A stretch of DNA of 64,000 bases, taken from the NCBI GenBank assembly GCA_963823665.1, contig CAWGMQ010000011.1:544001-608000 (forward strand). Direction: 5' to 3'. The position numbers and the translations under genes were made by a program. Shown in pieces: positions 7,301 through 36,366 of the stretch; position 1 is the stretch's first letter, and each line of letters starts with the position of its first letter. Origin of the DNA: an uncultured Planctomycetota bacterium (lineage in GTDB: Bacteria; Planctomycetota; Planctomycetia; Isosphaerales; Isosphaeraceae). Under the pieces are notes generated by a model. It saw nothing but the letters and a program-made list of their open reading frames with translations. It was not told the DNA's origin and ran no database searches.

Positions 7301-8192
7301 GGGATTCCAGGATTCCAGACACCCATCCTTTTGTCTCGGTCCCGCGCATCCATTCATTCGCGGCTCGCTCGTTCGGTGCAAAACTACGGCCTCTGGTCAT
7401 TTCGAACTCGCAGAAGGCGAGTGCCCGACGCACGGCAAAACGTGGGTGTCTTTGCGTCAGGAAAGCTCGAGAAAGGAGGAAGTGCCTCGAAACACAGAAA
7501 CCTTTCATCGCGACCCTGCGGGTTAACGAATCCCGCCCGGCAGAGCCTGGCCGGCAGCCGGAAGCAAGTCTTGCGTGGGGAGGGGTGACCCTCACTGCGA
7601 AGCGTAGACAGCGAGTCTCCATGCCATGCTATCGAGCCCCGAAATACTCATCGTGGGAGCCTCCGTTGTAGACACAAGCGGGGGCCGCGTCGACACGCCG
7701 CAATGGCCTGGCGTGTTCGGTCCTGCCGGGGTCCAAGAACATGGCGCAGGGACGCGAGGGTTGCTCGGGAACCTGAGAGCCCCATCCGTCTCCACTGACA
7801 TTTCCGGCTCGGGAACCGGAATACCAACTCCCCGGCCCACGACCCCGCGTCGGGTCGCTGGGAGCGAACAAGACGCAAGGGTGGTATCGCAACATGAAGG
7901 CAACGAAATGTGACGAAAGGGGCGGACGGGAGTCGGAGTGCTCCGTAGTAGCAGTGAAGCGGGGGAATGGGCCCTCCCAGACCCTGTGGAGCGAAGGGGG
8001 TACCGTGTCGCGGACTGGAAGCCGGAACCACGCCGAGGGCATTGGACCTCAGAGCGCGTCACCGCGAGGCGACCAGATCGTGTGAGGGACAGCGACGCCG
8101 CGACATGACGAGCCGGATGCCTTAATTGGGCACGTCCGGATCAGTGGGAGCCCTGGCGGAGCGATCCGCCAGGGCGACCCGGCGACATCCCC
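7301..8192 (+). repeat. Hairpin repeat R1 (right arm split by intron)
   Basis: Left arm GGGATTCCAG-GATTCCAGACACCCATCC from 7301; right arm GTGGGTGTCT(7451)^GACATCCCC(8184-8192). Confidence 0.9.
7452..8183 (+). mobile_element. ORF-less group II intron, copy 1 (732 nt)
   Basis: 5' TTGCG; domain V GAGCCGGATGCCTTAATTGGGCACGTCCGGATC; domain VI hairpin ending GACCCGGC; EBS1 AGACAC at 7670-7675 complements exon GTGTCT; boundaries set from empty sites. Confidence 0.92.
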
Positions 8193-8621
8193 TTCCCTGC
8201 TTTTCATTCGTGCGATTCGTCAGATTCGTGGCTTCTCTTCCCCGCTCCGCGCCACGCTTCGCTTCCGCTTTTCGCCTTTGGACACGCACAACCTTGTTCC
8301 GCCCCGTCGTTCGCGATCGGTGCTACGCAAATTCTGCTTCCCCTGTCGGGCGACCATCGGGCGGCAGCCGCGCACGCCATGCTACCCGCCGATCATTCCG
8401 ATTGCTGCCGGCCGAAGCCAGCCCGTCCGTCCATTGCGGACCGACTTCCGCCGAGCGAAAGTGGAGGCGCGCCGAAAACAACCGGCGCGCATCAGCTTTC
8501 GGTTGGTAAAATGGTGGAAATCCCGATGGGCTGCATCGCTTGACCGTGAGTCTCGACCCTCAAAGGAACCGGGTTTGGCGTAGTTACGGATAGCGTCGTC
8601 TATGAAAGGGAGAGCAAAGCC

Positions 8622-8906
8622 GTGACCACCGTGCGTACCGTCATCCACGACCGGCGAATCGAGATTCCCGCACCCGAGAACCTCGCCGATGGTACGGAGG
8701 TAATCCTCACGATCGGCACCGATGTCGCCGATGACGACGGTCCGATGTCGCCCGCGGAAATCGCCCGCGTTCTGGCGGCTATGGGGCGCTTGCAACCACT
8801 CGAAATCCCCGACGATGTCGCGGCGGAACTCGACGCCTGGGAAAACAAGCTGAATCAACACGGCATCGATCGCGCTGAGCGTGAAGGCGAGGACATGTCC
8901 GGATGA
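8622..8906 (+). CDS. Putative antitoxin (VapB-like partner)
   Basis: Small acidic ORF overlapping (ATGA) the start of a PIN toxin gene. Confidence 0.75.
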   Translation: MTTVRTVIHDRRIEIPAPENLADGTEVILTIGTDVADDDGPMSPAEIARVLAAMGRLQPLEIPDDVAAELDAWENKLNQHGIDRAEREGEDMSG

Positions 8907-9301
8907 GACGGTTCATCCTCGATACCGGCATAGCCGCGCTGCATCTCGACCGCAAGCGAGGCGTATTTGAACGGGCAGCCGCCGAGGTCGCCAGAGGCAA
9001 CCGGGTCGGCATCGCGGCGCCGGTGCTCGCCGAACTTGCATTCCGGGCGGAAGGGAGCCCGCAACGCGAACGGAACATCCTGCGGCTTCGCCAGGCACTG
9101 GACGCGTGGAAACTCTGTTTGGTCGACACCGCAGCAGCATTCGAATACGGCCGGCTGGCACTCGAGTTGAAGTCGATCGGTCGCCCCATAGGCCAGAACG
9201 ACATCATGATCGCCGCCATCGCGCTGTCCCTGGGCAACACCACTGTCGTCACTACGGATAGCGACCTCGCCGCCGTCCCCGGATTGACCGTCGAGAACTG
9301 A
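8903..9301 (+). CDS. vapC: PIN-domain VapC family toxin
   Basis: FILDTG, LAEL, IGQNDIMIAAIA, VVTTDSDL..VPGLTVEN motifs. Confidence 0.92.
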   Translation: MRRFILDTGIAALHLDRKRGVFERAAAEVARGNRVGIAAPVLAELAFRAEGSPQRERNILRLRQALDAWKLCLVDTAAAFEYGRLALELKSIGRPIGQNDIMIAAIALSLGNTTVVTTDSDLAAVPGLTVEN

Positions 9302-9348
9302 GCGGAGGCCACTTAACCAGCGAATGTCCGGGTCTCCTGGCGTGGCCA

Positions 9349-10329
9349 GGAGCCAGACACCCAATCTCTGAGGAGCCGAGGAGCCAGACACCCAATCTCT
9401 GGTTCCGAGGAGGAGCCAGGGATTCCAGGCACCCATCCTTTGTCTCGCGGCCCCCGCATCCTTTCATTCGCGGCACGCAAGTCGGGTGCAAAACCACGGC
9501 CTCTGGTCAAGTCGAACACGCAGAACGCGAGCGCCTGACGCTCGGCAAACGGTGGGTGTCTGACATCCTCGGCAAACGGTGGGTGTCTTTGCGTCAGGAA
9601 AGCTCGAGAAAGGAGGAAGTGCCTCGAAACACAGAAACCTTTCATCGCGACCCTGCGGGTTAACGAATCCCGCCCGGCAGAGCCTGGCCGGCAGCCGGAA
9701 GCAAGTCTTGCGTGGGGAGGGGTGACCCTCACTGCGAAGCGTAGACAGCGAGTCTCCATGCCATGCTATCGAGCCCCGAAATACTCATCGTGGGAGCCTC
9801 CGTTGTAGACACAAGCGGGGGCCGTGTCGACACGCCGCAATGGCCTGGCGTGTTCGGTCCTGCCGGGGTCCAAGAACATGGCGCAGGGACGCGAGGGTTG
9901 CTCGGGAACCTGAGAGCCCCATCCGTCTCCACTGACATTTCCGGCTCGGGAACCGGAATACCAACTCCCCGGCCCACGACCCCGCGTCGGGTCGCTGGGA
10001 GCGAACAAGACGCAAGGGTGGTATCGCCAAACGAAGGCAACGAAGTGCGGCGAAATGGGCGGACGGGAGTCGGAGTGCTCCGTAGTAGCAGTGAAGCGGG
10101 GGAATGGGCCCTCCCAGACCCTGTGGAGCGAAGGGGGTACCGTGTCGCGGACTGGAAGCCGGAACCACGCCGAGGGCATTGGACCTCAGAGCGCGTCACC
10201 GCGAGGCGACCAGATCGTGTGAGGGACAGCGACGCCGCGACATGACGAGCCGGATGCCTTAATTGGGCACGTCCGGATCAGTGGGAGCCCTGGCGGAGCG
10301 ATCCGCCAGGGCGACCCGGCGACATCCCC
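9349..10329 (+). repeat. Hairpin repeat R2 with GGAGCCAGACACCCAATCTCTG sub-repeats and a duplicated right arm
   Basis: Sub-units at 9349-9418; main left arm at 9419; empty arm GGTGGGTGTCTGACATCC at 9551-9568; second arm split by intron. Confidence 0.9.
9589..10320 (+). mobile_element. ORF-less group II intron, copy 2 (732 nt)
   Basis: Near-identical to copy 1; same insertion point GGGTGTCT^GACATCCC. Confidence 0.92.
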
Positions 10330-10458
10330 AAAAATGAATGTCGGCCCGGACCTGGAAATCTCGGATTCGGTGCTCAGTGGCGAGAGGGTCGGTTCGCCCG
10401 ATAAGCTAAACGCACGTCGACCTTCACTGCGAATATGCAAAACCGGAGTGCGTTTGCC

Positions 10459-11724
10459 ATGCAATCGAGCCGTCGCCAGTTCTTGCAGCGCTCGGCCGCT
10501 CTTCCTCCAAGCTGGATGGCGTTCGCAACGGCCCTCGCGGCCGCGCGAACGACGCGAGCCGTCGCCGATGGGGGTTCGGATGAACTGCAGTGGCAACTTG
10601 TCCGACGACAGTTTCCGCTCGAAGACGGCCTGATCTACCTGAACGCCGCCAACGTCTGCCCGGTTTCGCGCCCGGTCCTCGATCGGTACGCTTCATTCTT
10701 GCGCGACTTCCAGGCCAACCCTTCTTTTCAGAATCGCGACAAGTACCACGCGCTTCGGGAATCGGTCCGCTCCAAGCTGGCTGCCCTTCTCGGCGTCTCG
10801 GCCGACGAGGTTGCCATCACTCGCAACACCAGCGAAGGCTCCAATCTCATCGTCCGCGGAATCGACCTCAAGCCCGGAGACGAAATCGTCATCACCGACC
10901 ACAACCATCCCTCGAACAATGAGAGCTGGAAGCTTCGCGCCCGCCGCGACGCCTTGGTGATCAGAAGTGTTCCAGCGCCCGTCCCGGCGCAGTCGCCCGA
11001 GCAACTGGTCGCCGGCATCGAGAAAGCCTTGAGCCCGCGCACGCGCGTGATAGCGCTCACCCATTTGACCAGCACCTGCGGCCTTCGATACCCTATCAAG
11101 CCAATCGCTGAGCTGGCCCGACGGCGCGACATTTTCCTGCATGTCGACGGCGCACAGTCGCTCGGCGCAAGCGACGTGAATCTCAGGAACCTCGGCTGCG
11201 ACTCATTCTCGGCCAGTGCACACAAGTGGCCGATGGGCCCTCTTGAAGCCGGGATTCTCTTCGTGCGCACCGAGCGGATCCCATCAGTCTGGCCGTCGAT
11301 TGTCTCGGCGGGCTGGAGCGACCAGCTCAAAGGCGCCAGGAAGTTCGAGTCGGTCGGCCAGCAGGATGACCCCCGAGTGGTCGCCCTGGAAGCGGCCCTG
11401 GACCTGCTCAACCTGATCGGTATCCGGCAGGTCGAAGCCCGAGTGCAGGCACTGGCTGGTCGCGTCAAACATTCGCTGTCAGAACTGGCGAACGTGGAAC
11501 TGAAAACGAATCTCGAGCCCGAACTCTCAGGCGGGGTAGTCAAGTTCAGACTCAAGAACATGCCCACTGCGCAAGCCTACGACGTGCTCTGGAAACGGCA
11601 TCGCCTGGCGATTGCGATGACCGGCGGAGGCGATTCGGAAGGACTGCGATTCTCGCCCCATATCTATAACACCGTCGACGAGATCGACCGCGCCGTAGCC
11701 GCCGTTCGCGAGCTCTCCGGATGA
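10459..11724 (+). CDS. Class V PLP-dependent aminotransferase (isopenicillin N epimerase/cysteine desulfurase-like) with probable Tat signal
   Basis: SRRQFL Tat motif; YLNAAN, TRNTSEG, HVDGAQ, SAHKW (PLP lysine), LRFSPHIYN. Confidence 0.9.
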   Translation: MQSSRRQFLQRSAALPPSWMAFATALAAARTTRAVADGGSDELQWQLVRRQFPLEDGLIYLNAANVCPVSRPVLDRYASFLRDFQANPSFQNRDKYHALRESVRSKLAALLGVSADEVAITRNTSEGSNLIVRGIDLKPGDEIVITDHNHPSNNESWKLRARRDALVIRSVPAPVPAQSPEQLVAGIEKALSPRTRVIALTHLTSTCGLRYPIKPIAELARRRDIFLHVDGAQSLGASDVNLRNLGCDSFSASAHKWPMGPLEAGILFVRTERIPSVWPSIVSAGWSDQLKGARKFESVGQQDDPRVVALEAALDLLNLIGIRQVEARVQALAGRVKHSLSELANVELKTNLEPELSGGVVKFRLKNMPTAQAYDVLWKRHRLAIAMTGGGDSEGLRFSPHIYNTVDEIDRAVAAVRELSG

Positions 11725-12390: not shown

Positions 12391-13306
12391 TGGATGGAGA
12401 GAGCGGCCGGGGATCCCAGACACCCATCCTTTGTCTCAGGGATCCCAGACACCCATCCTTTGTCTCACGGCCCCCGCATCCATTCATTCGCGGCTCGCAC
12501 GCTCGGCGGAATACCACGGGATCCCAGACACCCATCCTTCGGGATCCCAGACACCCATCCTTTGTCTCACGGCCCCCGAATCCACTCATTAGCGGCTCGC
12601 ACGTTCGGCGCAAAACCACGGCCTCTGGTCATTTCCAACACGCAGAAGGCCAGTGCCCGACGCTCGGCAAACGGTGGGTGTCTGACATCCCTCTGACATC
12701 CCCGACGTTCGGCAAAAGGTGGGTGTCTTTGCGTCAGGAAAGCTCGAGAAAGGAGGAAGTGCCTCGAAACACAGAAACCTTTCATCGCGACCCTGCGGGT
12801 TAACGAATCCCGCCCGGCAGAGCCTGGCCGGCAGCCGGAAGCAAGTCTTGCGTGGGGAGGGGTGACCCTCACTGCGAAGCGTAGACAGCGAGTCTCCATG
12901 CCATGCTATCGAGCCCCGAAATACTCATCGTGGGAGCCTCCGTTGTAGACACAAGCGGGGGCCGTGTCGACACGCCGCAATGGCCTGGCGTGTTCGGTCC
13001 TGCCGGGGTCCAAGAACATGGCGCAGGGACGCGAGGGTTGCTCGGGAACCTGAGAGCCCCATCCGTCTCCACTGACATTTCCGGCTCGGGAACCGGAATA
13101 CCAACTCCCCGGCCCACGACCCCGCGTCGGGTCGCTGGGAGCGAACAGGACGCAAGGGTGGTATCGCCACACGAAGGCAACGAAGTGCGGCGAAAGGGGC
13201 GGATGGGAGTCGGAGCGTCTCGTAGTACCGTTGAAGCCGGGGAACCACTCCGAGGGACCCGGTGGAGGGAAGGAGACGCCATGTCACACAACCGTTGGAG
13301 GGAAAC

Positions 13307-14658
13307 ATGGCGGGTGCATCGGAACCCGTGGACGTGTCCACGAAACAACAACGGATAGCGGAACTCGCTCGGCGAAGCCCGGAGATGGGATTCACATCCC
13401 TGGGGCACTTCATCGACCTCGATTGGCTGCTCACAGCTTACTACCGGACCCGCCAAGACGGGGCGGTGGGCGTAGACGGACAAGATGGCGAGGCCTACGC
13501 AGCGAACCTGGTCCCGAACCTACGGTCGCTGCTGGAACGAGCCAAGTCCGGTACGTACCACGCACCGCCTGTGCGGCGAGTGCATATCCCCAAGGCAGGC
13601 TCAGCGACCGAAACCCGGCCACTGGGAATCCCGACCTTCGAGGATAAAGTGCTCCAGCGTGCTGTCGTGATGGTTCTGGAGGCGATATACGAGCAGGACT
13701 TCAAGAACTGCTCGCATGGCTTCCGGCCCGAGCGATCGGCACACACTGCGTCAGAGAGCCTGTGGCAACAGACGATGAACATGAAGGGCGGATGGGTAGT
13801 GGATGTGGACATTCGTAAGTTCTTTGACACGATTGACCACGGCCATCTACGCGACTTCCTCAAGCGTCGGGTGCGAGACGGAGTGCTGCTCCGGCTCATC
13901 GGCAAATGGCTCAATGCGGGCGTCTTCGAGAACGGGTGCGTTACGCACCCCGAAATGGGGTCGCCACAAGGGGGTGTGATCAGCCCGATCCTTTCGAATA
14001 TCTTCCTGCACTACGTGCTGGACGAGTGGTTCGAGCGGGAGGTTCAGCCTCGGATGATGGGCAGATCGTTCTTGATCCGCTATGCGGACGACTTCGTCAT
14101 GGTCTTCTCATGCGAGTCCGACGCACGGCGTGTGATGAATGTGTTGCCCAAACGCTTTGAGAAGTACGGCTTGACCATCCACCCGGACAAGACGCGGCTG
14201 GTGCCGTTCGAGCGGCCATCGGACCGTCCCAAACCGGAAGGCAGACCCACACGAACTCCACCAGGGACTTTCGACCTGCTGGCGTTCACCCATTACTGGG
14301 GTCGCTCCCGGCAGGGTCGCTGGGTGGTGAAGCGCAAGACGTCCAAAAGTCGATTTCGCCGCAGCCTGCGAACGTTGGCGGATTGGTGTCGCAAAATCGC
14401 CATCAACCGCTCAAGGTGCAGCACCGGATACTAGGTCAGAAACTGCTAGGCCACTATGCCTACTACGGAATCACCGGCAACTCCAAAATGTTGTCACGGT
14501 TTCGCAGTGGTGCCACCTGGCTCTGGCAGCACTGGCTGTCGCGCCGCGGGCGCGGCCGTCGGATGACATGGGAACGGTTCGCTCGGTTCCTGAAGCATAA
14601 ACCGCTTCCGGCAGCGATTGCGATCCACTCAGTATGCCGTCTCGTAGCGAACAAGTGA
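13307..14658 (+). CDS. ltrA: Group II intron reverse transcriptase/maturase without endonuclease domain; one-base frameshift at 14393-14396
   Basis: RPLGIPTFEDK, GFRP, DIRKFFD, GSPQGGVISP, RYADDF; X domain GHYAYYGITGN in the next frame; one extra A in the AAAA run restores RKNRHQP. Confidence 0.9.
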
Positions 14659-14705
14659 CATGACGAGCCGGGTGCCTTAATTGGGCAAGCCCGGATCTGT
14701 GGGAG

Positions 14706-17125
14706 TCGCGAAACGAAGCTGCGGATGAGTCTGTTATGACTGGATTTGCAACCAGGACATAACCCGATGTACGACCACCGGAACCCTACCAGGACGTGCG
14801 GCCGGAGCAATCCGACCGTGCGAAGCTCTTGGGACAACGTAACCTCACCTTCGGGTGGTTGGATATCCCGTGAGGGAATCCGGCGACTGCGAACGCCAAT
14901 GCGGTCGGGGGCCAGGGGTGGATGGCATGGCTAATCCAGGTGAACTGCCGATAAACGTCGTGAGATCCAACAAGCCAAAGGCGCTGAGAGGCTTGAACCA
15001 AAAAGGTACGTGGCCAGGTACAGTGGGATTTCCCATCCCCTGTCGTCGTCATCCGAGCCACCGGCGGAGAGGCAGAGCCTAAACCATCCGTGATTCATCC
15101 GTGGAACGTGGTAAGCCCGTCGCCCTCCCTTCGGGGTAGGACCGTCGTAAGGCGTCGCCGATGGGGCGGCGGGTGGAGGATGAGGGAGCAAGCCAATGCC
15201 GTTCGGTAGTCGATCGGATAGAGGGTGAGTCCTCCCACGGACGACATCCCCTCACCGCGAAAGCGGTGCCGACTTCCCTCAGGTGTTCCGTCACGAGAGA
15301 ACCTTGGCCAACCGACTCAGGGAGACAAGCAGATATGTCGGCGGCAGAAATGCTTGCTGGTGCGGCTCCCGAGCTTACGCCCGACTGGCACTCCATCGAA
15401 TGGAAGAAAGTCTGGCGCACAGTCCGTCGGCTCCAGGCGCGTATCGTGAAGGCTGTTGCGGAGGGCAGATGGAATAAGGTCAAGGCTCTGGTTTATCTGC
15501 TCACGCACTCGTTCAGTGGCCGGGCCCTGGCCATTTTGCGAGTCATCAGTAATTCGGGTGCGAAGACTCCCGGTGTGGACGGAGTTCTCTGGAACACACC
15601 GGAAGCCAAGTCGGCTGCTTTCAGCACTCTGCGTCGGCACGGTTACCAACCGCAACCGCTCCGCCGGGTGTACATTCCCAAAAGCAACGGCAAGCGACGT
15701 CCTCTCGGAATTCCCACCATGTCAGATCGAGCCATGCAGGCATTATACTTGCTAGGCCTCGATCCCATTGCGGAATCTCGAGCCGACGGCCATTCCTATG
15801 GCTTTCGGCTGGAACGTCGTTGTGCCGACGCCCTGGAACAATCTCATATTGTCTTGGGTAATCGGAGCGGTCCAGCATGGATTCTCGAAGGGGACATCAA
15901 AGCTTGCTTTGATCGCATCAGTCATGACTGGCTCTTGACGCACGTCCCCATGGACCGGCAGTTGCTCGGGCAATGGCTGAAAGTGGGTTTCCTGGAGAAG
16001 CACGCCTGGTTCGCCACCACGGAAGGAACACCTCAAGGCGGGATCATTTCACCCGTCCTGGCGAATTGGACTCTGGATGGACTGCAACGGCTGTTGGCGG
16101 AACAGTTCGCCGAGAAGCACGGGCGACAACGGAAGTTTAAAGTCCACCTGGTCCGCTATGCGGATGACTTCTTGATCACGGGCATCTCAAAGGAACTCCT
16201 CCGTGACCAAGTGCAACCTCTCGTGGCTCATTTCTTGAAGGAACGCGGCTTGGAACTTTCCCACGAGAAAACCCAGATCACGCATGTGGAGGATGGCTTC
16301 GATTTCTTGGGGCAGAATGTGCGACGCTATCGCTGCGGCAAGGTGTTCACCAAGCCGTCCTTGCGAAACGTGAAGACGTTCTTGAACAAGATACAGGAAA
16401 CGATCGACGGCTCGGGCAGCCTAACGGCAGGAGAGATGATCTGGCGTTTGAATCAGCAGATCAAGGGCTGGACCATGTACCACCGTTACGCGGCGAGCAA
16501 GCGCACTTTTACGTACGTGGATCACCGGATTTTCCAGAAATTGTGGCGTTGGTGTCGACGACGGCACCAGAACAAAGGCCGGAGGTGGATCAAGGAGAAA
16601 TACTTCCAGCAAGACGGTTACCGCCACTGGGTCTTCACCGGTACGCTGTTTGACCAGAAAGGCCAAGGCCGGCCGATCCAGTTGATGGAAGCAGCCAAAG
16701 TGAAGATCATTCGTTATGTGAAGATCCGGAGCGACGTGAATCCCTACGATCCGAAGTGGGAACTGTACCTGGAAGCACGACTGGGTTGGCAACTGAGCCA
16801 AACGCTGGCAGGTCGGGGTCGGATCGAATACTTATGGAAGGAACAAGAGGGACGATGCGTGGTCTGTGGTCAACCGCTGCGGATCGCAGAGGAAGACTTG
16901 CATCTCCACCATCGCATCTGGCGCAGCCGGGGCGGTTCTGGCACAGCCGACAACCTGGAGTTGTTGCATGCCAACTGTCATCGGCAGATCCATGTCCAAG
17001 AACGACTGACGAAAGCGGCCGCGTCCTGCGAGGGGCGTTCGTGAAGGCTTGAGCTGCATGAAGGGAAACTTTCACGTGCAGTTCTGAGGGGAGGGGGTGG
17101 CGGTAACGTCACCTCCTTACCCGGC
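14706..17125 (+). mobile_element. Inner group II intron (CL-like, IIB) inserted in domain VI of the outer intron
   Basis: Removing it restores GGGAG-CCTTGGGGGA-GCGA-TCCCCCAAGG-CGACCCGGC; it has its own DV (GAGCTGCATGAAGGGAAACTTTCACGTGCAGTTC, about 17051-17084) and DVI; putative EBS1 TTCCCA (15030-15035) pairs with TGGGAG. Confidence 0.9.
15335..17044 (+). CDS. ltrA: Group II intron RT/maturase with C-terminal HNH endonuclease
   Basis: [18 protein letters not shown]-terminal domain, [17 protein letters not shown] domain, CVVC...HLHH...[16 protein letters not shown] upstream of the ATG. Confidence 0.95.
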
Positions 17126-17318
17126 CCTTGGGGGAGCGATCCCCCAAGGCGACCCGGCGACATCCCTGACATCCCCTAAGCGTGATAAGTAAACGGCAGG
17201 GGAAGAGTCGGACGGTCGCTGGAAGCTAACTCCCACCGACGTAGTGACCCTAACGGCAGGCCCACCAGGTCGCCGTCGGCGGGGTGTAATTACAGCGCGA
17301 GCTCGTTATGATAAATCC

Positions 17319-17585: not shown

Positions 17586-17587
17586 CC

Positions 17588-17690
17588 GTGGACAAAGCCA
17601 CGCGGGACCTCGTCCGATCGCGAGCCAACGGACGCTGCGAGTACTGCCTACTCCGACAAGAACATGTCTCACTAACGCACCACATCGAAC
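17588..17690 (+). pseudogene. N-terminal fragment of an HNH endonuclease, truncated at a repeat half-site
   Basis: GTG-start frame reads MDKATRDLVRSRANGRCEYCLLRQEHVSLTHHIE and then runs into GGTGGGTGTCCGACATCC. Confidence 0.75.
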
Positions 17691-17708
17691 GGTGGGTGTC
17701 CGACATCC
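17688..17708 (+). repeat. Isolated right arm (half-site) R4 of the hairpin repeat
   Basis: AACGGTGGGTGTCCGACATCC, one mismatch to the consensus arm. Confidence 0.8.
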
Positions 17709-17806
17709 GCTAGAGAACTCCCAGCGCGCGTCCGGCATCGGTCGGTCACGTATCGTAGTCGCCGCTGTCCCACGGCTCGTAGAACGCCATGTACTTCCCC
17801 TCCTGG

Positions 17807-19468
17807 TCAAGGGTTCGCCACCAGGACCGGTACCTGCACACCCTGCCAGATCGCGTGGTCGACGTCGTCCTGCACGAAGGCCACGATGGCCAGGTCGTCG
17901 AGGTCGATCGGCGGGAGCGGGTTCGGGAACGATCGGCCTGCGCTGCCGGGGAACTTGTCGACATAATCCGTCTGGGCCTTTCGCACATCGGACAGCTTGA
18001 CCACGAGGTCGACCGAGGCCTTGCCTCCCTCGAGCGCCTTGCCCGGAACGCCGCCGGGGAACGCCCGAACGACGTTGTGGTGGAACCGAAGCTTGTTGCC
18101 GCCGGGATAGCGCACGGATTCCTCGACTAGCACGAGCCGGAGCCTGGGCTTGGCGCTGTTGGAGGCGCCTTCGGCCTTGGCGGTCGCGTTGATCTTGAGC
18201 GAGTCGCCGGTCCGGGTCGCGCTCAGGGTGATTTCCGCCTGCTTCGACGTCTCGAGGGCAGGGTCGATCAATCCCCGATACTGCGTGTATTTGGCCTCGG
18301 CGCGCTGCATCGGGCCGCCTCCACCGGCGGCCTGCTTGCCCTGGAAGAACGTGCTGGGCGTGCCCCGGATTTCGGTGCCGTAGTACTTCTGCCGGGCGAC
18401 GGTGTCGTCGTTGGTCAGAGGGTCGGGACCGGGAATGTGAAGGTGGTATTGCAGGCCAATGAACTCGGTTGGCTTGTACGACTTGAGCAGGGCGTCGAAA
18501 CCGACATCGGCTGCGACGCACGGGGGGCACTCGGCCCCGGTGAAGATCTCCATGACCACCACGCGCTCGGCCTTGGTGTTCTTGCGGCCGCCGAAGGTCT
18601 GGGGCTTGAACGGCGGGACCGTCTTGTGATACTCCTCGTCCAGCTTGGCGTCGAGCTCCTTGACCTTGGCAAGGTTGGCGTCGGCGAGGTCGATCTTGCC
18701 GGCGAGTCGAGCCGACCGGGCGAGCATCCCACTGATAGAGGCGCGCACCTCGAGGGGGGCGTCGGCGGGCAGCGCGGCCTCGGCCGCAACCGCGAGTTCG
18801 GTGGCGAGCCCGGCAAAGTCCTTCTTGTCCTGCAGAGCCCTTAACGCCCGGGTGCGGATGTCAGTCACCCATTCAGTCCCGTAAGGGATGGCGTCATTGG
18901 TCCAGTTTTCGACGTGCTTGCGAACCTCGGCCTCGGACAGGCCGGCCTTATCGGCCACGCTCAGCATCGAGGCATAAGCGACGGCGTTGTACGGCTCGCC
19001 GTTCTCATGAATCAAGGCCAGCAGCTTGGCCACCTTGGCCTTGCCATCGGCCTCGCGCATGGCCTCCGACACGTTGGGACGGCTGCCCGCGTTCGATAAG
19101 GGCGCGACCTTCTCGGCGTCGGTCTTCTCCAGCCGCGCCGGGTACTTCGATGTCGCGTAATTGACAACGCCGCGGGCCTTGCCATCCGGCCCCACCTTGC
19201 CACGGAACGAGAGTGCGACCCCGCTGCCGGGGAAGTTGAGCGTGACCGCGTCTCCCTCGATCTTCCCCTCGGCCTTGCGTTCGCCCAGCATGGCCTGGGT
19301 GCTGAGCGCGCTGCCGGAGAGCGCACCGTCCGAGGCTTTTTTGAGATCAACGATCAGGAACTCGTCGTACCCGAACGGCAAGACCACGAGCTTCCACTTG
19401 CCGGCGAGGTCGGGCGGGGCGGCACCTGTGAGGGCCAGGGCTAGAACGGCGGTCGCGAGTCTCCACAT
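17807..19468 (-). CDS. Secreted protein with C-terminal thioredoxin-like (Omp28-like) domain
   Basis: Signal peptide; VVMEIFTGAECPPC, YHLHIPGPDPL, GTPS. Confidence 0.8.
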   Translation of the reverse strand: MWRLATAVLALALTGAAPPDLAGKWKLVVLPFGYDEFLIVDLKKASDGALSGSALSTQAMLGERKAEGKIEGDAVTLNFPGSGVALSFRGKVGPDGKARGVVNYATSKYPARLEKTDAEKVAPLSNAGSRPNVSEAMREADGKAKVAKLLALIHENGEPYNAVAYASMLSVADKAGLSEAEVRKHVENWTNDAIPYGTEWVTDIRTRALRALQDKKDFAGLATELAVAAEAALPADAPLEVRASISGMLARSARLAGKIDLADANLAKVKELDAKLDEEYHKTVPPFKPQTFGGRKNTKAERVVVMEIFTGAECPPCVAADVGFDALLKSYKPTEFIGLQYHLHIPGPDPLTNDDTVARQKYYGTEIRGTPSTFFQGKQAAGGGGPMQRAEAKYTQYRGLIDPALETSKQAEITLSATRTGDSLKINATAKAEGASNSAKPRLRLVLVEESVRYPGGNKLRFHHNVVRAFPGGVPGKALEGGKASVDLVVKLSDVRKAQTDYVDKFPGSAGRSFPNPLPPIDLDDLAIVAFVQDDVDHAIWQGVQVPVLVANP

Positions 19469-19734
19469 GGTTGAACTCCTGGTGGGGGGACGGAAACGAG
19501 ATGCACCCAGTATCGAAATCGATCCGCCTTTTCGGGATCAGTCACTCTTATGCCCAGAACAGCCAGAGTAGCACCCCGCGGGCTGGTTTACCACGTCCAG
19601 GACCGCATTTCCCGTCGCGTTCAAGGATGAGCACCCGAGCACCCGAGCCGGGGACTGAGAAGCCCGTTGGCCGCGTCATTGCCGCCTTACCCGAAGGACC
19701 GCTGAAGCAAGTCTTGAGAAGGATGGCGGTCGCA

Positions 19735-19897
19735 GGGATTCCAGGGGATTCCAGACACCCATCCTTTTGTCACGGCCCTCCGCATCCACTCATTCGCGGC
19801 TCGCACGTTCGGCGCAAAACCACGGCCTCTGGTCATTTCCAACACGCATAAGGCTAGTACCCGACGCTCGGCAAACGGTGGGTTTCTGACATCCCCC
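19735..19897 (+). repeat. Hairpin repeat R5, intron-free, with altered target (GGGTTTCT)
   Basis: Complete unit with both arms; IBS1 changed from GTGTCT to GTTTCT. Confidence 0.9.
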
Positions 19898-19931
19898 TGC
19901 GAACGACGACGGCACCAGCAGCGGAACCCGA

Positions 19932-21646: not shown

Positions 21647-22185
21647 CCCTGATTCTCCGGATCAAACCCACGCTCTATAGACAAGGAACAGTACGGCCCA
21701 GTTTGCGACGGCGCCCGCGAAGAGTACCCGATCTCATCAAAAACGCATATTCGTCTTGTTGACATTGTCAATTTTTAACCGCCCATGCATGGTGCTCGGC
21801 ACTCGAGCTCACCTCACCTAGCTAGATCTTGCTCGCGCGCTAGACCTGACGCCCGCTCACCGAATGAAACTCGTCGCAATCGAATGCGCTTTCTGGACCG
21901 CGATCCCTTGGGTGTAGTACACTTAATTCGCCGCGCTCAACCGTCACGTGACTGCTCTTGCGGTTACCCCGAGATCCAACGTTCTCTGTTCCACGGGATC
22001 GCGACTATGGCAGTGGTCGGACGGCGAACCGTTGCTCGCGTCGTTGAACAGTGTTCTCGTGGCTCTTCGACGCCATGATCTGGATGAGAGACCGGGCGAC
22101 GAGACGTTACCTGCCCGTCAGAGGGCGAGGGATTTGGCCGTTGGTCGTCGCTTGATGAGAATCTTTCCACTCGGGAGGGCCGCTG

Positions 22186-24473: not shown

Positions 24474-24737
24474 GGACAACCGTCCGAGGAGGAGGAGCCA
24501 GGGGGAGCCAGACACCCAATCTCTGGACAACCGTCCGAGGAGCCGAGGAGCCAGAGGAGCCAGACACCCAATCTCTGGTTCCGAGGAGAAGCCAGGGAAT
24601 CCAGGCACCCATCCTTTTCTCACGGTCTTCCATATCCATTCATTCGCAGCTCGCACGTTCGGCGCAAAACCACGGCCTCTGGTCACTTCGAACACCCATA
24701 ACGCGAGTGTCCGACGCTCCGCAAGAGGTGGGTGTCT
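24474..24737 (+). repeat. Hairpin repeat R6 with sub-repeats; right arm ends at the intron insertion point
   Basis: GGAGCCAGACACCCAATCTCTGG twice; left arm at 24595; GGTGGGTGTCT followed by GTGCG instead of GACATCCC. Confidence 0.85.
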
Positions 24738-24833
24738 GTGCGTCGTTGGCTCGGTGTCACCGCGTTTGCGCCTGAATCTCTCGCCTGAATCGGCTCCTGA
24801 GCCCTGTGTCAAACAATTCCGGCCCCGGCAAAC

Positions 24834-26613: not shown

Positions 26614-27113
26614 CGTGCTCTCCTGGGGTGTTGAACTTTTGTGATGAACAACCTCTCTTACGCCCTGCACGAGTGCCTCGAATCCCTCGCGTCCCCATGG
26701 CGCAGGGGTCCACACATCCGGCGCCTGCCGGTCATCCCAGCGAATGGCGCCGGCTGCGAGCGCGGTGCCGCTGTCGATGGATCGGGGCGTTCGCGCAGGG
26801 ATCGGGCTCAAAGGCCCTGACCGGGTGAAAACGCTCGACCAAACCCGAAAACTCAGGGAAGCGCCTGCCGCGTGTCCGGCGCGGCGATGAATAGAGACCT
26901 TCGCGATTTCGAATTAACGGACAGGGTTTCCGGGAAAATTCCAGATTTTCCCCGTCGGTCGTTTCGAGCAGGGTGCCGGGGCCGCACCCGGCGTGCAACT
27001 CCTGGCGCTACCGACGCGGTACCGTGCGATCCCCTTACTCATACTCCTGCTCCTGCTCTCACTTCCGCTTTCTCCATCAATCATCCAACCCGGTTCGCAC
27101 AGACGAAGTGCCA

Positions 27114-28068
27114 GGAGGAGCCAGACGCCCAATCTCTGGTTCCCAGGAGGAGCCGGGGAATCCAGACACCCATCGTTTTATCAGGGAATCCAGACACCCA
27201 TCGTTTTATCACGGTCCCCCCCATCCATTCACTCGCGGCTCGCAAGTTCGGTGCAAAACCACGGCCGCCGGTCATTTCGAACACGCAGAAGGCGAGTGCC
27301 CGACGCTCGGCAAAAGGTGGGTGTCTTTGCGTCAGGAAAAGCTCGAGAAAGGAGGAAGTGCCTCGAAACACAGAAACCTTTCATCGCAACCCTGCGGGTT
27401 AACGAATCCCGCCCGGCAGAGCCTGGCCGGCAGCCGGAAGCAAGTCTTGCGTGGGGAGGGGTGACCCTCACTGCGAAGCGTAGACAGCGAGTCCACATGC
27501 CATGCTATCGAGCCCCGAAATACTCATCGTGGGAGCCTCCGTTGTAGACACAAGCGGGGGCCGCGTCGACACGCCGCAATGGCCTGGCGTGTTCGGTCCT
27601 GCCGGGGTCCAAGAACATGGCGCAGGGACGCGAGGGTTGCTCGGGATCCTGAGAGCCCCATCCGTCTCCACTGACATTTCCGGCTCGGGAACCGGAATAC
27701 CAACTCCCCGGCCCACGACCCCGCGTCGGGTCGCTGGGAGCGAACAAGACGCAAGGGTGGTATCGCAACATGAAGGCAACGAAATGTGACGAAAGGGGCG
27801 GATGGGAGTCGGAGTGCTCCGTAGTAGCAGTGAAGCGGGGGAATGGGCCCTCCCAGACCCTGTGGAGCGAAGGGGGCACCGTGTCGTGGACTGGACGCCG
27901 GAACCACGCCGAGGGCATTGGACCTCAAAGCGTGTGACCGTAAGGCAGCCAGATCGTGAGAGGGACAGCGACGCCGCGACATGACGAGCCGGATGCCTTA
28001 ATTGGGCACGTCCGGATCAGTGGGAGCCCTGGCGGAGCGATCCGCCAGGGCGACCCGGCGACATCCCC
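27114..28068 (+). repeat. Hairpin repeat R7 (split by intron)
   Basis: Sub-repeat, duplicated GGGAATCCAGACACCCATCG left arms, right arm split at 27326/28060. Confidence 0.9.
27327..28059 (+). mobile_element. ORF-less group II intron, copy 4 (733 nt, the most divergent)
   Basis: Same ends and domains as the other copies, with several substitutions. Confidence 0.92.
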
Positions 28069-29041: not shown

Positions 29042-29097
29042 AAAAGGCGTGCGATGATGCACCCATTAGCGGCTCGTGAACCCGTTGTCGGCGACTT

Positions 29098-29649: not shown

Positions 29650-29950
29650 GGGCTCTCTCCCGGAACGAGGGGCGAGGTCAAGGCACCCGGCAATCCCGAA
29701 TCTACGCGACGCCGCAGCTTCTTTCTAGCGAGTGACGTCGGAGGTTGGCGGCCCTTATTCCAGTTTCCTGTTCGTTTGCTATCCTCGGCTACACATTAAG
29801 GGTCAAGTCGCGGGGCGAGACTTACCAGTTCAGGCTGCTATCGACCTCGCGTTGGTGGTGGGGGTGGTGGGACCTGGACCGTTTTTGGTTCGCCGATACA
29901 GCACTTCCCCTGAGAAGGGAGCTCGTAAACCCGGACTGGCGAGGGTCCAA

Positions 29951-30776
29951 GGGGATTCCAGACGCCCACCCTATTGTCATGGTCCCCCGCATCCATTCAT
30001 TCGCGACTCGCGCACTCGGCAAACGGTGGGTGTCTTTGCGTCAGGAAAGCTCGAGAAAGGAGGAAGTGCCTCGAAACACAGAAACCTTTCATCGCGACCC
30101 TGCGGGTTAACGAATCCCGCCCGGCAGAGCCTGGCCGGCAGCCGGAAGCAAGTCTTGCGTGGGGAGGGGTGACCCTCACTGCGAAGCGTAGACAGCGAGT
30201 CTCCATGCCATGCTATCGAGCCCCGAAATACTCATCGTGGGAGCCTCCGTTGTAGACACAAGCGGGGGCCGTGTCGACACGCCGCAATGGCCTGGCGTGT
30301 TCGGTCCTGCCGGGGTCCAAGAACATGGCGCAGGGACGCGAGGGTTGCTCGGGAACCTGAGAGCCCCATCCGTCTCCACTGACATTTCCGGCTCGGGAAC
30401 CGGAATACCAACTCCCCGGCCCACGACCCCGCGTCGGGTCGCTGGGAGCGAACAAGACGCAAGGGTGGTATCGCCAAACGAAGGCAACGAAGTGCGGCGA
30501 AATGGGCGGACGGGAGTCGGAGTGCTCCGTAGTAGCAGTGAAGCGGGGGAATGGGCCCTCCCAGACCCTGTGGAGCGAAGGGGGTACCGTGTCGCGGACT
30601 GGAAGCCGGAACCACGCCGAGGGCATTGGACCTCAGAGCGCGTCACCGCGAGGCGACCAGATCGTGTGAGGGACAGCGACGCCGCGACATGACGAGCCGG
30701 ATGCCTTAATTGGGCACGTCCGGATCAGTGGGAGCCCTGGCGGAGCGATCCGCCAGGGCGACCCGGCGACATCCCC
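29951..30776 (+). repeat. Hairpin repeat R8, internally deleted (split by intron)
   Basis: Both arms present but the central part is missing. Confidence 0.85.
30036..30767 (+). mobile_element. ORF-less group II intron, copy 5 (732 nt)
   Basis: Appears identical to copy 2 by eye. Confidence 0.92.
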
Positions 30777-31121
30777 TTCAGCGACCTTGCCGAGCAGGTA
30801 GCCAAGCTCGTCCCCGTCAAGCCCGGCGACCTCGGCAATCCCGTGGATATTCCGGATCAGGTCCGCTTCAGCGCCGATGACGACCGTGTGTGTTACCTCA
30901 CTCCTCGGCCGGGCGAGAACGAAGCGGTCCCATGAGATGAACAGTTCCTCGATCTTGGGTGTCGTCCAGTCCTCGTCGAGTAGAGCGGCCAGGAGCGCAG
31001 TGAACATTACGCCGGTCTCGATCGGCTTGAGTTTCCGGGCGCAGTCGGCGCGGATCTGGGCGGGGTGTTCGTACGACGACGTGAAGCGGATCATCAAGAT
31101 CCTCGCCACGTGGGGTGCCAA
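30777..31121 (-). pseudogene. Hypothetical gene whose 3' end runs into repeat R8
   Basis: Protein-like ORF (..GLDGDELGYLLGKVAE) continues without a stop into the repeat and intron. Confidence 0.5.
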
Positions 31122-31344
31122 GATCAGCGGCGAACAGTTCCGGGAGCAAACCTCTGCCTATCTTAAGAAACGACCCGCCAGGTGAATCGCGCAATCGGTC
31201 TCCGCACTCGAACGAAATCATCGGCCGCTGTCGCCCGCGGTTCAAAGGCGTGCGTTCTGCCCAGAAGAACGCACATGACTGTAGATCGGCCGGGATCACC
31301 GTCTCAATACGGATTTTGGCTCTTCTGCACGTCCCGATTCACCT

Positions 31345-31893
31345 CTAAAGGTCATCGACGAGTTTTGGCAAATTGCGGAGCCAAACTAAAGGATTGAACG
31401 TTTCCTCGAACGCCCAACCCGCGAAGCTGCATTGCGCAACGAACGTCTCACGAGCAGTATTTCCTGATTTCCAGTGGCGGCCAGGAATGGCTTCCAGCGA
31501 TTCAAACTCGGTCAACACGGCATCGCAACTTATTTTGTTCATCGGCTTTTCACCCAATCGCCACCAGTTGGTGAGTCGGTCAGGGCGAGCTTGATAAAAA
31601 TCCCGCACCTCAGCGCCTTGCGGTGGGGAACTCACCTTGTCCTGCGAAACTAAACGGGCGACTACAGCCTCGACCCTTGGTGATCGATCCGGATGATGGA
31701 AAATCACGCATACGGAGTTACCAGCGCGCAAAAAACCAGTGCCAGCGTGGTGAGTCGCGAACCAAGCGGCTGAATTCGGATCGCGGCGGCACTGTTTCAC
31801 GATGTTTCGTAGTTCCGTGGCAGGGTGAGGCCCGCCATTCATCGACAGCTTTGTTAGAACATGTGAATAATGTTTAACTGAAGTCGCGGCCAT
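31345..31893 (-). CDS. Hypothetical protein (lower GC)
   Basis: 182-aa ORF with GGAG upstream of the ATG. Confidence 0.6.
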   Translation of the reverse strand: MAATSVKHYSHVLTKLSMNGGPHPATELRNIVKQCRRDPNSAAWFATHHAGTGFLRAGNSVCVIFHHPDRSPRVEAVVARLVSQDKVSSPPQGAEVRDFYQARPDRLTNWWRLGEKPMNKISCDAVLTEFESLEAIPGRHWKSGNTARETFVAQCSFAGWAFEETFNPLVWLRNLPKLVDDL

Positions 31894-32130
31894 AAACTGT
31901 TACTCTCCTGGAGTTTTGCTGATTGCGTGAGACAACTTCCGGGATGGCGCACCGGCGAGCCCGCCACGGTCATCTTGACCGACGACGATGTCCCGGGATT
32001 GAGTGAGGTTGAGATCGCGGCCGAATAGACTGCGAGCAGCATTATAACCGATCGGCACAAAACATCCTGGTACGACGGTCCACTGGGCGGTGCTCGCACG
32101 CCGGGCCATACCCTGGTGATCTTTATGCCT

Positions 32131-32325
32131 GGGGATTCCAGACACCCATCCTTTAGTCACGGTCCCCCGAATCCATTCATTCGCGGCTCGCTCGTTCGGC
32201 GCAAAATCACGGCCTCTGGTCAAGTCGAACACGCAGAAGGCGAGTGCCCGACGCTCGCCAAAACGTGGGCGTCTAACATCCCGACATCCCCGACGCTCGG
32301 CAAACGGTGGGTGTCTGACATCCCC
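32131..32325 (+). repeat. Hairpin repeat R9, intron-free with intact target site
   Basis: Complete unit with duplicated right arm; GTGTCT^GACATCCCC at 32311-32325. Confidence 0.92.
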
Positions 32326-34134: not shown

Positions 34135-34141
34135 GCCTGCC

Positions 34142-35367
34142 ATGGAGCCCCATCTGATCCGGCCCGGTCGCCGAGTCGCGGCGCTGATCGTGGTCTCGCT
34201 GGCGACCTGGCTGGCCTCGTGCCGCCCGCGAAGCGAGGCCCCCGGCGCCCGGGTCGACCGGGCGCTGGGCCGTGCGTTGCGATCGCTTATTGTCGCCCAG
34301 TCCCCCGACGGGGCCTGGCGATCGTCGACCTACGGCGTGTTCAAGGACGGCTTGTCGCTGACACCCACGGTGCTGAAGGCAGTCGCGTTCGGGCCGGACG
34401 TCGACGGTTCCGCGATGGCAAGGCGCCGCGCGGCCGGGTACCTGATCGGGTGCGTCAGGGCCGACGGCTCGATCGACGGCGGCCGGTTCGGCATGACCTA
34501 TCCGGTCTACAACGCCTCGGCCGCGGTGATCACGCTGACGGTCCTCGATGTCCCGGAGGGCCGCGGGCGCGCGACGCCTGGCTCCGCGAGCTGCGCCGGC
34601 GGCAATCGACCGAGGTCCTCGGATGGGGGCCCGGCGATCCGGCGTTCGGCGGATGGGGCTACTCGATCGAGCCGCCGTCGCGGGGAGATGCGGCCCTCGC
34701 CCCGGGCCAGCATGTAGACGCCGACCTCTCCTCGACCTTGTTCGCGATCGGAGCCTTGCGGATCGCCGGGGTGGAGGCCGAAGATCCCGCGATCCGCAAG
34801 GCCTTGACCTTCGTCGAGCGGTGCCAGAACGTCGCGGCGGGCGATGAGGGGAGCGATCCGCGATTCGATGACGGGGGCTTCTTCTTCACGACGACCGACC
34901 CGGTGCGCAACAAGGCCGGCGTCGCGGGCATGGATCGGCACGGCTGGACGCGCTACCACTCCTATGGCAGCGCGACGGCCGACGGGCTGAGAGCCCTGCT
35001 GCGTTGCGGCCTCGCCAGGGATCATCCGCGGGTCGCCGCCGCAAGGAAGTGGCTGGAGGCGAATTTCTCGCCCTCGACCAATCCCGGCACGTTCGAGCCA
35101 GCCCGCGAGTCCGACCGCGACGCCACGTATTTCTACTACGCGTGGTCGGTCGCCCACGCCTTCCGCGGCCTGGGGATCGCGGAGATCGAGTGCGACGGCC
35201 GCAGGATCGCCTGGGCCGAAGTCCTCGCGACCGAACTCGTCCGCAGGCAGCGCGACGACGGGAGCTGGGCTAACCGGTTCACTGCGTCCAAGGAAGATGA
35301 CCCCCTCGTCGCGACACCCTTCGCGGCCGGGGCACTCGGCATCTGTCGGACGTTCCTCGCCCGATGA
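34142..35367 (+). CDS. Prenyltransferase/squalene-oxidase-repeat protein; frameshift near 34562
   Basis: QSPDGAW, FGGWGY, DGGF, QRDDGSW repeats across two overlapping frames. Confidence 0.75.
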
Positions 35368-35438
35368 ATCCCATTGAGCGCCGACCGGACACCACCCGTG
35401 AATTCACACTGACAACTCAAAGTATTCATGAATATTAA

Positions 35439-36366
35439 GGGATGTCAGACACCCACCTTTGGGATGTCAGACACCCACCTTTGGGGATGTCAGACACCCA
35501 CCTTTTGCCGGGCGTCGGACACGCGCCTTCTGCGTGTTCGAAATGACCGGGGGCCGTGGTCTTGCGCCGAACTTGCGAGCCGCGAATGAATGGATGCCGG
35601 GGCCGTGACAAAAAGATGGGTGTCTTTGCGTCAGGAAAAGCTCGAGAAAGGAGGAAGTGCCTCGAAACACAGAAACCTTTCATCGCGACCCTGCGGGTTA
35701 ACGAATCCCGCCCGGCAGAGCCTGGCCGGCAGCCGGAAGCAAGTCTTGCGTGGGGAGGGGTGACCCTCACTGCGAAGCGTAGACAGCGAGTCTCCATGCC
35801 ATGCTATCGAGCCCCGAAATACTCATCGTGGGAGCCTCCGTTGTAGACACAAGCGGGGGCCGTGTCGACACGCCGCAATGGCCTGGCGTGTTCGGTCCTG
35901 CCGGGGTCCAAGAACATGGCGCAGGGACGCGAGGGTTGCTCGGGAACCTGAGAGCCCCATCCGTCTCCACTGACATTTCCGGCTCGGGAACCGGAATACC
36001 AACTCCCCGGCCCACGACCCCGCGTCGGGTCGCTGGGAGCGAACAAGACGCAAGGGTGGTATCGCCAAACGAAGGCAACGAAGTGCGGCGAAATGGGCGG
36101 ACGGGAGTCGGAGTGCTCCGTAGTAGCAGTGAAGCGGGGGAATGGGCCCTCCCAGACCCTGTGGAGCGAAGGGGGTACCGTGTCGCGGACTGGAAGCCGG
36201 AACCACGCCGAGGGCATTGGACCTCAGAGCGCGTCACCGCGAGGCGACCAGATCGTGAGAGGGACAGCGACGCCGCGACATGACGAGCCGGATGCCTTAA
36301 TTGGGCACGTCCGGATCAGTGGGAGCCCTGGCGGAGCGATCCGCCAGGGCGACCCGGCGGAATCCC
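35439..36366 (-). repeat. Hairpin repeat R10, inverted; intron lies in the opposite arm
   Basis: GGGATGTCAGACACCCACCTTT three times, reverse-complement core, GATGGGTGTCT^GGAATCCC. Confidence 0.9.
35626..36358 (+). mobile_element. ORF-less group II intron, copy 6 (733 nt)
   Basis: Same element; 3' exon begins GGAATCCC. Confidence 0.92.

What the first reader, a model, noticed from the sequence alone, without database searches (positions are those of the whole stretch)
7301..36366. Integron-like array: about ten ~150-bp hairpin repeats partition 29 kb of unrelated cargo
Seen: the same unit occurs at about 7301, 9419, 12409, 17688 (half), 19735, 24595, 27155, 29951, 32131 and 35439 (inverted). 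It has ~22-bp imperfect terminal inverted arms (GGGATTCCAGACACCCATCCTTT / AAACGGTGGGTGTCTGACATCCC) and nested internal pairings (CTCGC/GCGAG, GTTCG/CGAAC, ACCA/TGGT), so the whole unit can fold as one long hairpin. I saw no copies after 36.4 kb. Between units lie unrelated cargo segments: VapBC, an HNH toxin-antitoxin-like pair, secreted enzymes, an MBL hydrolase and low-GC orphans. I see no consistent target-site duplication and no attC-type RYYYAAC/GTTRRRY ends. Established: integron attC sites are ssDNA hairpins that delimit cassettes, their arrays are rich in toxin-antitoxin cassettes, and IIC-attC introns target them. Inference: this may be an analogous but distinct gene-capture or shuffling platform whose recombinase (tyrosine recombinase or HUH/RAYT-type) is encoded elsewhere.
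Basis: partly seen in the sequence, partly recalled or inferred. Interest (0 to 1): 0.9.

Follow-up and report, generated by a model that had tools for sequence, protein, structure and literature searches.

The report
Transposon-end mini-elements carrying homing introns
The repeats are miniature, gene-less copies of a little-studied jumping-DNA family that gather in same-direction clusters at points where unrelated DNA has been joined, and self-splicing introns have specialised on landing in their ends; this is not an integron, but it may shuffle genes in a related way.

Summary
The ten repeats are real, but this is not an integron. No IntI reaches its cut-off in either genome searched, there are no attC cores, only the arms pair, and arms cut through genes.

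The unit is a ~150-bp non-autonomous element (53 matches genome-wide). Its arm core, CAGACACCCA, also flanks ~1.75-kb elements encoding a ~408-aa HUH/Y1 transposase elsewhere in the genome. That enzyme fits TnpA-Y1 subclass 2.3, and its model matches TnpA-REP. The same inward motif flanks homologues in other phyla.

All 18 of 18 intron starts follow GGGTGTCT, matching EBS1. A sister intron lineage targets the opposite strand.

Copies cluster (32 of 49 within 10 kb; null 2.8) and are co-oriented (50 of 53 pairs). Four of nine cargo intervals recur at 89-98% identity beside repeats of a congener, in other order.

Best reading: TIRtron-type MITEs whose one-ended joining, plus recombination between copies, builds IS26-like arrays. 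The enzyme link and array mechanism are inferred, not shown.

The parts
7301..8192 (+). Repeat unit 1 (7301-7451 plus arm end 8184-8192), right arm split by an intron
7452..8183 (+). ORF-less group II intron, lineage A (EBS1 AGACAC; target GTGTCT|G)
   Evidence: Rfam RF02005
8622..9301 (+). Cargo: antitoxin-sized ORF plus VapC/PIN toxin; module 8190-9324 is 97.6% identical to DNA between arms in a G001 cluster
9339..10329 (+). Repeat unit 2 with stuttered left extension and stuttered right arm
9589..10320 (+). ORF-less group II intron, lineage A (100% identical to the 30036 copy)
10435..11724 (+). Cargo: class V aminotransferase, followed by an N-terminally cut fragment with no arm at the join
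12410..17178 (+). Repeat unit 3 (three prefix duplications), right arm split by nested introns
12729..17158 (+). RT-bearing lineage-A group II intron (12729-14705 plus 17126-17158); RT/maturase ORF 13295-14434 with a frameshifted tail to 14658; likely helper of the ORF-less copies
14706..17125 (+). Inner group II intron nested just after domain V of the outer one; 627-aa RT-maturase-HNH ORF 15161-17044
17688..17709 (+). Lone right arm cutting a short HNH-like ORF that starts at 17588 (HNH call from the motif by eye; no family hit)
17757..19640 (-). Cargo: 553-aa Omp28-like protein; 96.7% identical to DNA in the G001 C5 cluster
19735..19897 (+). Repeat unit 5, intact; its right junction is bridged by short-read contigs of two other studies
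20578..21820 (-). Cargo shared (89%) with the G001 C5 cluster; interval also holds an L19-domain fusion ORF and an MBL-fold ORF
24489..24738 (+). Repeat unit 6; right arm ends at the intron insertion point, followed by GTGCG and then unrelated DNA
27102..28068 (+). Repeat unit 7 with ORF-less intron 27327-28059
29951..30777 (+). Internally deleted repeat unit 8 with ORF-less intron 30036-30767; arm end cuts an ORF on the - strand
31276..32088 (.). Cargo shared (92%) with G001 C4:3208862-3209663, 1.3 kb from a G001 repeat
32131..32325 (+). Repeat unit 9 with suffix duplication
35439..36367 (-). Repeat unit 10, inverted, with triple right arm; ORF-less intron 35626-36358 (+ strand) sits in its left arm
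36368..36614 (+). 3' fragment of a peptidase S9 gene fused to the arm; intact relatives (94%) lie at G000 C6:379.9 kb and in G001 without an arm

Best explanation
The ~150-bp unit is a non-autonomous 'TIR dimer' (MITE) of a TIRtron-like family whose enzyme is a subclass-2.3 HUH/Y1 transposase encoded elsewhere in the genome. Shown: shared end motif, Y1 fold and motifs, many intact and broken enzyme copies, identical end-stutter. Inferred: the enzyme nicks single-stranded DNA at the end motif, forms a 5'-phosphotyrosine and joins that end to new DNA, often one end at a time and with re-initiation. That would give stuttered ends, no target duplication, adjacent deletions and arms fused to gene interiors. 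Inferred (about 0.4): pieces of 'one element plus adjacent DNA' enter at resident copies, by the transposase or by recombination through the repeat or the near-identical 733-bp introns, building co-oriented arrays as IS26 does. Shown by sequence: two sister group II intron lineages home on the end motif by EBS1-IBS1 pairing on opposite strands. Inferred: the ORF-less copies move in trans using the RT-bearing sibling.
For: CAGACACCCA 194 vs 8 control in G000. Intact ~408-aa ORFs carry this core about 230 bp upstream and 330 bp downstream, inward-facing and stuttered. 60 listed matches in each of G000 and G001. Invariant NHxH and YxDLNP in 42 homologues fit the subclass 2.3 row of PMC6006769 Table 1. 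Model pLDDT 79; best Foldseek hit TnpA-REP 4er8, then IS200/IS605 TnpA. Inward motif upstream in 26 of 36 and downstream in 24 of 36 intact homologues, outward 1 and 4, background 5.8%; metagenome loci alone 20 of 24 and 11 of 13. Also seen at 4 of 5 Gammaproteobacterial loci. Stutter also occurs in single-contig G137. Clustering and co-orientation. 0 empty sites among 43 of 97 elements with a flank homologue. Mid-gene joins. Intron starts: 18 of 18 after GGGTGTCT; lineage B 8 of 10 after CAGACA, 1 near match, 1 cut.
Against: No autonomous element with this unit's exact arms or interior was found: the interior matches none of 10 sampled transposase UTR pairs (best z 3.4). In G137 the end motifs differ and stand in direct orientation, so inverted ends are not universal. 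Both ends carry the inward motif in only 17 of 30 homologues. The motif list was chosen after seeing earlier loci. A Pseudoalteromonas site shows a plain insertion with contiguous flanks, so the family need not rearrange. Mosaic joins occur without arms in the left flank. The empty-site test used only about 1.1 Mb of fetched, repeat-centred DNA. G007 is motif-rich (25 vs 0) without a hit to this query. No activity was measured.
Confidence: 0.65

Rival explanations
1. Ordinary MITE hot spot: the elements insert singly into dispensable, already mosaic DNA. Later deletions and homologous recombination between copies or introns scramble the flanks, with no special capture role.
For: Simple insertion in Pseudoalteromonas. 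Mosaicism without arms. Copies are recombinant: left/right half distance correlation 0.23, r2 falls from 0.40 to 0.03-0.07 with distance. A weak GC-skew bias (25 of 37 loci) could let replication explain co-orientation.
Against: 32 of 49 copies within 10 kb and 50 of 53 pairs co-oriented. Arm-plus-flank duplications inside arrays. Both cargo matches found by whole-genome search lie within about 1.3 kb of a G001 repeat.
Confidence: 0.3
2. Integron-like site-specific cassette system in which the hairpin acts as an attC analogue.
For: Co-oriented repeats 0.5-4.6 kb apart. Two toxin-antitoxin modules are bounded by arms on both sides in both genomes. Arms keep a 2-nt mismatch in 41 of 50 copies.
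Against: No IntI over cut-off in 2 of 2 genomes. No PF00589 match on this contig. 0 of 52 attC cores and an unstructured interior. Junctions vary by tens of bases and cut genes.
Confidence: 0.07
3. A different enzyme moves the unit: a subclass-2.1 TIRYT of the same genome, or the intron RT copying the RNA.
For: 11 PF01797 matches in G000, several with similarly stuttered ends. No exact parent found.
Against: Those ends lack the CAGACACCCA core, whereas subclass-2.3 genes carry it across phyla. Stutter occurs at both ends and around intron-free transposase genes.
Confidence: 0.1
4. The array is a misassembly through the near-identical introns.
For: Five intron copies are 97-100% identical over 733 bp. 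The assembly has frameshifts nearby.
Against: Contigs of runs X2 and X3 bridge the 19897 junction and one of X4 bridges 24489. G001 has like arrays without lineage-A introns. Repeat copies differ by 7-20%.
Confidence: 0.04

Closest known systems
TIRtrons/TIRYT and their TIR dimers (Di Nocera et al. 2013, PMC3733652; section 16 and passages read)
   Same: Y1 transposase gene between inverted repeats; the repeats also occur as dimers or clusters elsewhere in the genome.
   Different: End motif here is the GACACCCA type, not GGGGWSAS; the enzyme is subclass 2.3; dimers form co-oriented arrays at DNA breakpoints and host introns. Figure 9 and the supplements were not seen.
TnpA-Y1 subclass 2.3 (Quentin et al. 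2018, PMC6006769; sections 17, 22 and passages read)
   Same: YVDLNP motif, insertions in the core, long C-terminal tail, several copies per genome.
   Different: That paper found no REP-like flanking structure for 2.3; here a conserved inward end motif and dependent MITEs are seen. HuH is NHLH rather than NHYH.
REPIN/RAYT (Bertels and Rainey, PMC3116915, search listing only; passages in 10.1101/2024.07.17.603846)
   Same: About 100-150-bp non-autonomous units with inverted ends, tied to a Y1 enzyme.
   Different: No GTAG foot was seen in the arms; the enzyme is multicopy and often broken, not a single domesticated gene; copies sit in accessory DNA and cut genes.
IS26 arrays (Harmer and Hall 2021, PMC7885326, abstract read)
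   Same: Clusters of directly oriented copies interspersed with unrelated cargo.
   Different: IS26 is an autonomous DDE element (recalled) and its targeted reaction needs identical ends; these copies are 80-93% identical and non-autonomous.
Integrons/CALINs with group II introns (PMC7923331, abstract and section 13 read)
   Same: Repeat-punctuated cargo rich in toxin-antitoxin genes, with introns at the repeats.
   Different: No attC, no IntI; introns use EBS1 pairing with a sequence motif rather than a folded attC.

Membership tests
Integron / CALIN | Integron integrase gene | tested here: not met
   TIGR02249 below cut-off in G000 and G001; genomes 92% and 84% complete
Integron / CALIN | attC cores RYYYAAC...GTTRRRY (definition recalled) | tested here: not met
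   0 of 52 copies, either strand
Integron / CALIN | Fixed crossover point and intact, mostly single-gene cassettes | tested here: not met
   variable junctions and cut genes
TIRtron TIR dimer / MITE | Short, non-coding, multicopy unit with inverted ends | tested here: met
TIRtron TIR dimer / MITE | Ends shared with a Y1 transposase element in the same genome | tested here: met
   10-bp core shared, outer bases differ
TIRtron TIR dimer / MITE | GGGGWSAS consensus of most published TIRs | tested here: not met
   arms read GGGATTCCAG / GGGATGTCAG; PMC3733652 says other TIRs are unrelated to that motif
TIRtron TIR dimer / MITE | Interior derived from the autonomous parent | tested here: inconclusive
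   no match to 10 sampled elements; a sister family matches a transposase right end
TIRtron TIR dimer / MITE | Mobilised by that enzyme | not testable with these tools
   needs biochemistry
TnpA-Y1 subclass 2.3 | HuH, YVDLNP, core insertions, long tail, Y1 fold | tested here: met
   (31 of 42 hit PF01797 at E<=0.1); no tree against the published set was built
Classical DDE MITE | Precise ends and target-site duplication | tested here: not met
Group II intron | Ribozyme domains, domain V, 5' TTGCG, EBS1-IBS1 match | tested here: met
Group II intron | Splicing and retrohoming | not testable with these tools
   no RNA holder listed
IIC-attC intron | Inserts at a folded attC or terminator, not by a 6-nt EBS1 (recalled) | tested here: not met
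   fixed 6-nt IBS1 in either arm and in lone arms; RT class not assigned

The most novel reading that the evidence does not exclude
Subclass-2.3 HUH transposases and their MITEs form an IS26-like gene-recruiting system that works on single-stranded DNA. One end joins to flanking DNA, the 'element plus flank' unit is released, and it re-enters at resident copies. This grows co-oriented arrays that trade toxin-antitoxin and other modules between loci and genomes, while two intron lineages parasitise the recombining end from opposite strands.
Probability: 0.3. Interest if true: 0.8.

Novelty: new variant of a known kind. Interest (0 to 1): 0.55.

Why it matters
Subclass 2.3 Y1 enzymes are widespread and carry extra domains of unknown use, and PMC6006769 reported no flanking structure for them. 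A conserved end motif gives a concrete DNA substrate and makes their mechanism directly testable. The arrays suggest a route by which very large soil genomes reshuffle accessory genes without an integron. The sister introns are a clean natural case of EBS1 retargeting onto the two strands of one transposon end, with ORF-less copies depending on a helper.

Tried and rejected
DNA searches scored only the top 40 candidates per genome.

Pfam PF01797 search of G000 missed the cognate family; it was found with a local profile. Single-sequence PDB search was empty and the profile search gave only E 0.3-1 hits.

First pair count was misregistered by one column and redone. mis-indexed one group and was redone. 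One search timed out and was redone. The lineage-B count was circular (the pattern required CAGACA) and was replaced.

Empty-site searches between G000 and G001 found none: the regions are not syntenic, so this is uninformative. Cargo 10330-12400 has no match in G001. Three intervals (17179-17687, 24739-27101, 28069-29950) were compared only with fetched loci.

No RNA holder listed. Uncovered bins are not used as evidence.

Related introns in other genomes of the phylum (RT 56-63% identical) do not follow the arm motif at 0 of 10 loci with a plausible 5' end, so end-targeting is local, not lineage-wide.

Strand bias against GC skew is weak. Earlier-findings look-ups returned nothing.

Paper searches found no description of subclass-2.3 end motifs or of introns homing into TIRYT ends. 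The library holds open-licence papers only, and supplements of PMC3733652 and PMC6006769 were not opened and may list such ends.
Full report
Observation. The ten units exist where stated. They are about 150 bp and 80-93% identical, nine on the + strand and one inverted. Flanking direct repeats are only 2-4 bp and inconsistent, and attC cores are absent in 52 of 52 intact copies from two genomes. The arms can pair (88% of cells; in the MFE of 43 and 45 of 52 copies). The interior is no more structured than shuffles (mean z +0.3 and +0.6), and RNAalifold finds no long stem. Ends are ragged and stuttered: prefixes repeat at the left, suffixes at the right.

A third of the span (10,005 of 29,067 bp) is repeat and intron. 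Rfam finds group II intron domains at six arm sites and one nested site. Five copies are ORF-less, 733 bp and 97-100% identical. One carries an RT/maturase and has a second RT-HNH intron nested after its domain V. The ORF-less form aligns to the RT-bearing one on both sides of the ORF region, so trans-mobilisation is the natural inference. All 18 of 18 lineage-A starts in the fetched G000 DNA follow GGGTGTCT (one further pattern hit was not an intron), matching EBS1 AGACAC. A sister lineage about 72% identical has EBS1 UGUCUG at the same place and follows CAGACA on the other strand in 8 of 10 cases, with one near match and one cut copy. Related introns in other genomes of the phylum do not use this target (0 of 10).

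Distribution. The internal 21-mer has 53 matches on 9 of 12 contigs, control 0, and 44 in the congener G001. Of 41 genomes searched, only these two hold the unit, apart from a 32-bp marginal hit. Elements with the same arms occur in records titled Isosphaeraceae or Planctomycetota. Copies cluster: 32 of 49 have a neighbour within 10 kb (null mean 2.8, maximum 12 in 5,000 draws), and 32 of 42 in G001. Of 53 neighbour pairs under 8 kb apart in fetched loci, 50 are co-oriented.

The enzyme. No integron integrase reaches its cut-off in either genome, and none of 20 tyrosine-recombinase matches lies on this contig. The arm core CAGACACCCA occurs 194 times against 8 for the control. A local profile found ~408-aa ORFs beside such arms. 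Intact copies have the core about 230 bp upstream and 330 bp downstream, facing inward and stuttered, and one has the RT intron in its left end. Sixty matches are listed in each genome, most of them broken. NHxH and YxDLNP are invariant in 42 homologues, matching subclass 2.3 in PMC6006769. The model's best structural match is TnpA-REP, then IS200/IS605 TnpA.

The end motif across the family. An inward motif lies upstream in 26 of 36 and downstream in 24 of 36 homologues with enough flank; outward 1 and 4; background 5.8%. It is also seen at 4 of 5 Gammaproteobacterial loci. Among 200 other genomes of the class, four of the most motif-enriched (G141, G198, G024, G094) have the gene and G007 gave no hit. 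Against the link: no parent with this unit's interior was found, G137 has different motifs in direct orientation, and the motif list was set after seeing earlier loci.

Cargo and junctions. Four of nine intervals recur beside repeats of G001 in other order and in three different clusters: 8190-9324 (97.6%), 17757-19640 (96.7%), 20578-21820 (89%) and 31276-32088 (92%). The first two came from comparing fetched cluster DNA only, so they are not an unbiased test of proximity. Syntenic DNA right of the array matches at 80-90%. One G001 cluster holds pieces that G000 spreads over three arrays. Arms cut genes at 17688, 30777 and 36368, and probably at 19898. The 36368 fragment has intact relatives without an arm. 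A toxin-antitoxin module lies between two units in both genomes, but its upstream joins differ by about 40 bp, as adjacent deletion would give. No empty site was found among 43 of 97 elements with a flank homologue, though the search space was small. Some joins show 3-4 bases of microhomology and others none. Against a special role: mosaic joins also occur without arms, and a Pseudoalteromonas element is a plain insertion.

Assembly. Short-read contigs from runs X2 and X3 bridge the 19897 junction and one from X4 bridges 24489. Stutter also occurs in a single-contig genome.

Mechanism. Shown: shared end motif, Y1 fold, clustering, co-orientation, breakpoint position and intron target rule. Inferred from HUH chemistry (established knowledge; PMC7923331 section 13 for one-ended transposition): nicking at the motif, one-ended joining and re-initiation. 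Inferred by analogy with IS26 (abstract of PMC7885326): entry of element-plus-flank units at resident copies. Copies look recombinant, which fits either enzyme-driven or homologous exchange.

Papers seen. PMC3733652: passages and section 16. PMC6006769: passages and sections 17, 22. PMC7923331: abstract and section 13. PMC7885326: abstract. PMC11708052, PMC8919778, 10.1101/2024.07.17.603846 and 10.64898/2026.09.22.753630: passages. PMC12584367: abstract. No supplements were opened.

Verdict. Not an integron. It is a new variant of TIRtron/TIR-dimer elements, tied to subclass-2.3 Y1 enzymes, arranged in co-oriented arrays and parasitised by specialised introns. Interest 0.55; the IS26-like capture reading has probability about 0.3.

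Noticed in passing
G137 loci L200-L213: Fourteen near-identical subclass-2.3 elements in a single-contig genome carry their end motif in direct orientation at both ends, heavily stuttered; this suggests each end works on its own.
   Followed up: partly
L274/L280 versus L279: Pseudoalteromonas filled and empty sites between icd and an acetolactate synthase gene show contiguous flanks with no clear duplication.
   Followed up: yes
L020:6099-6297 and 7413-7604; L021:10135-10299 and 12495-12676: A second MITE family with the same arm core; it contains a relic arm plus 8 nt of the lineage-A intron start and part of a transposase right end.
   Followed up: partly
window 22192-23364: Ribosomal protein L19 domain fused to about 270 extra residues, inside the array; a paralogue lies at G000 C3:937 kb.
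   Followed up: no
window 36705-40148: Tricorn protease gene split over several frames; the beta-helix ORF at 24834-26538 and the RT tail are also frameshifted. These may be sequencing indels or decay.
   Followed up: no
window 1-570: An unidentified repeat with more than 30 listed matches in G000.
   Followed up: no
L001:11668-12109; L006:4021-4637; L002:19292: Arms of this family cut subclass-2.1 and subclass-2.3 transposase genes mid-frame.
   Followed up: partly
L019:3887-4956, 11275-12344, 16862-17373: About 1 kb of DNA plus a right arm is repeated at 98-99.5% within one array, once inverted.
   Followed up: partly
window 45224-56757: Run of Ser/Thr kinase-TPR, ECF sigma and TPR genes with 126-bp and 102-bp coding repeats; ordinary.
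   Followed up: no
L099, L110, L112, L114, L122: A ~165-bp MITE with perfect arms containing the same core in a Comamonadaceae record (5 copies); no Y1 gene within the fetched flanks.
   Followed up: no
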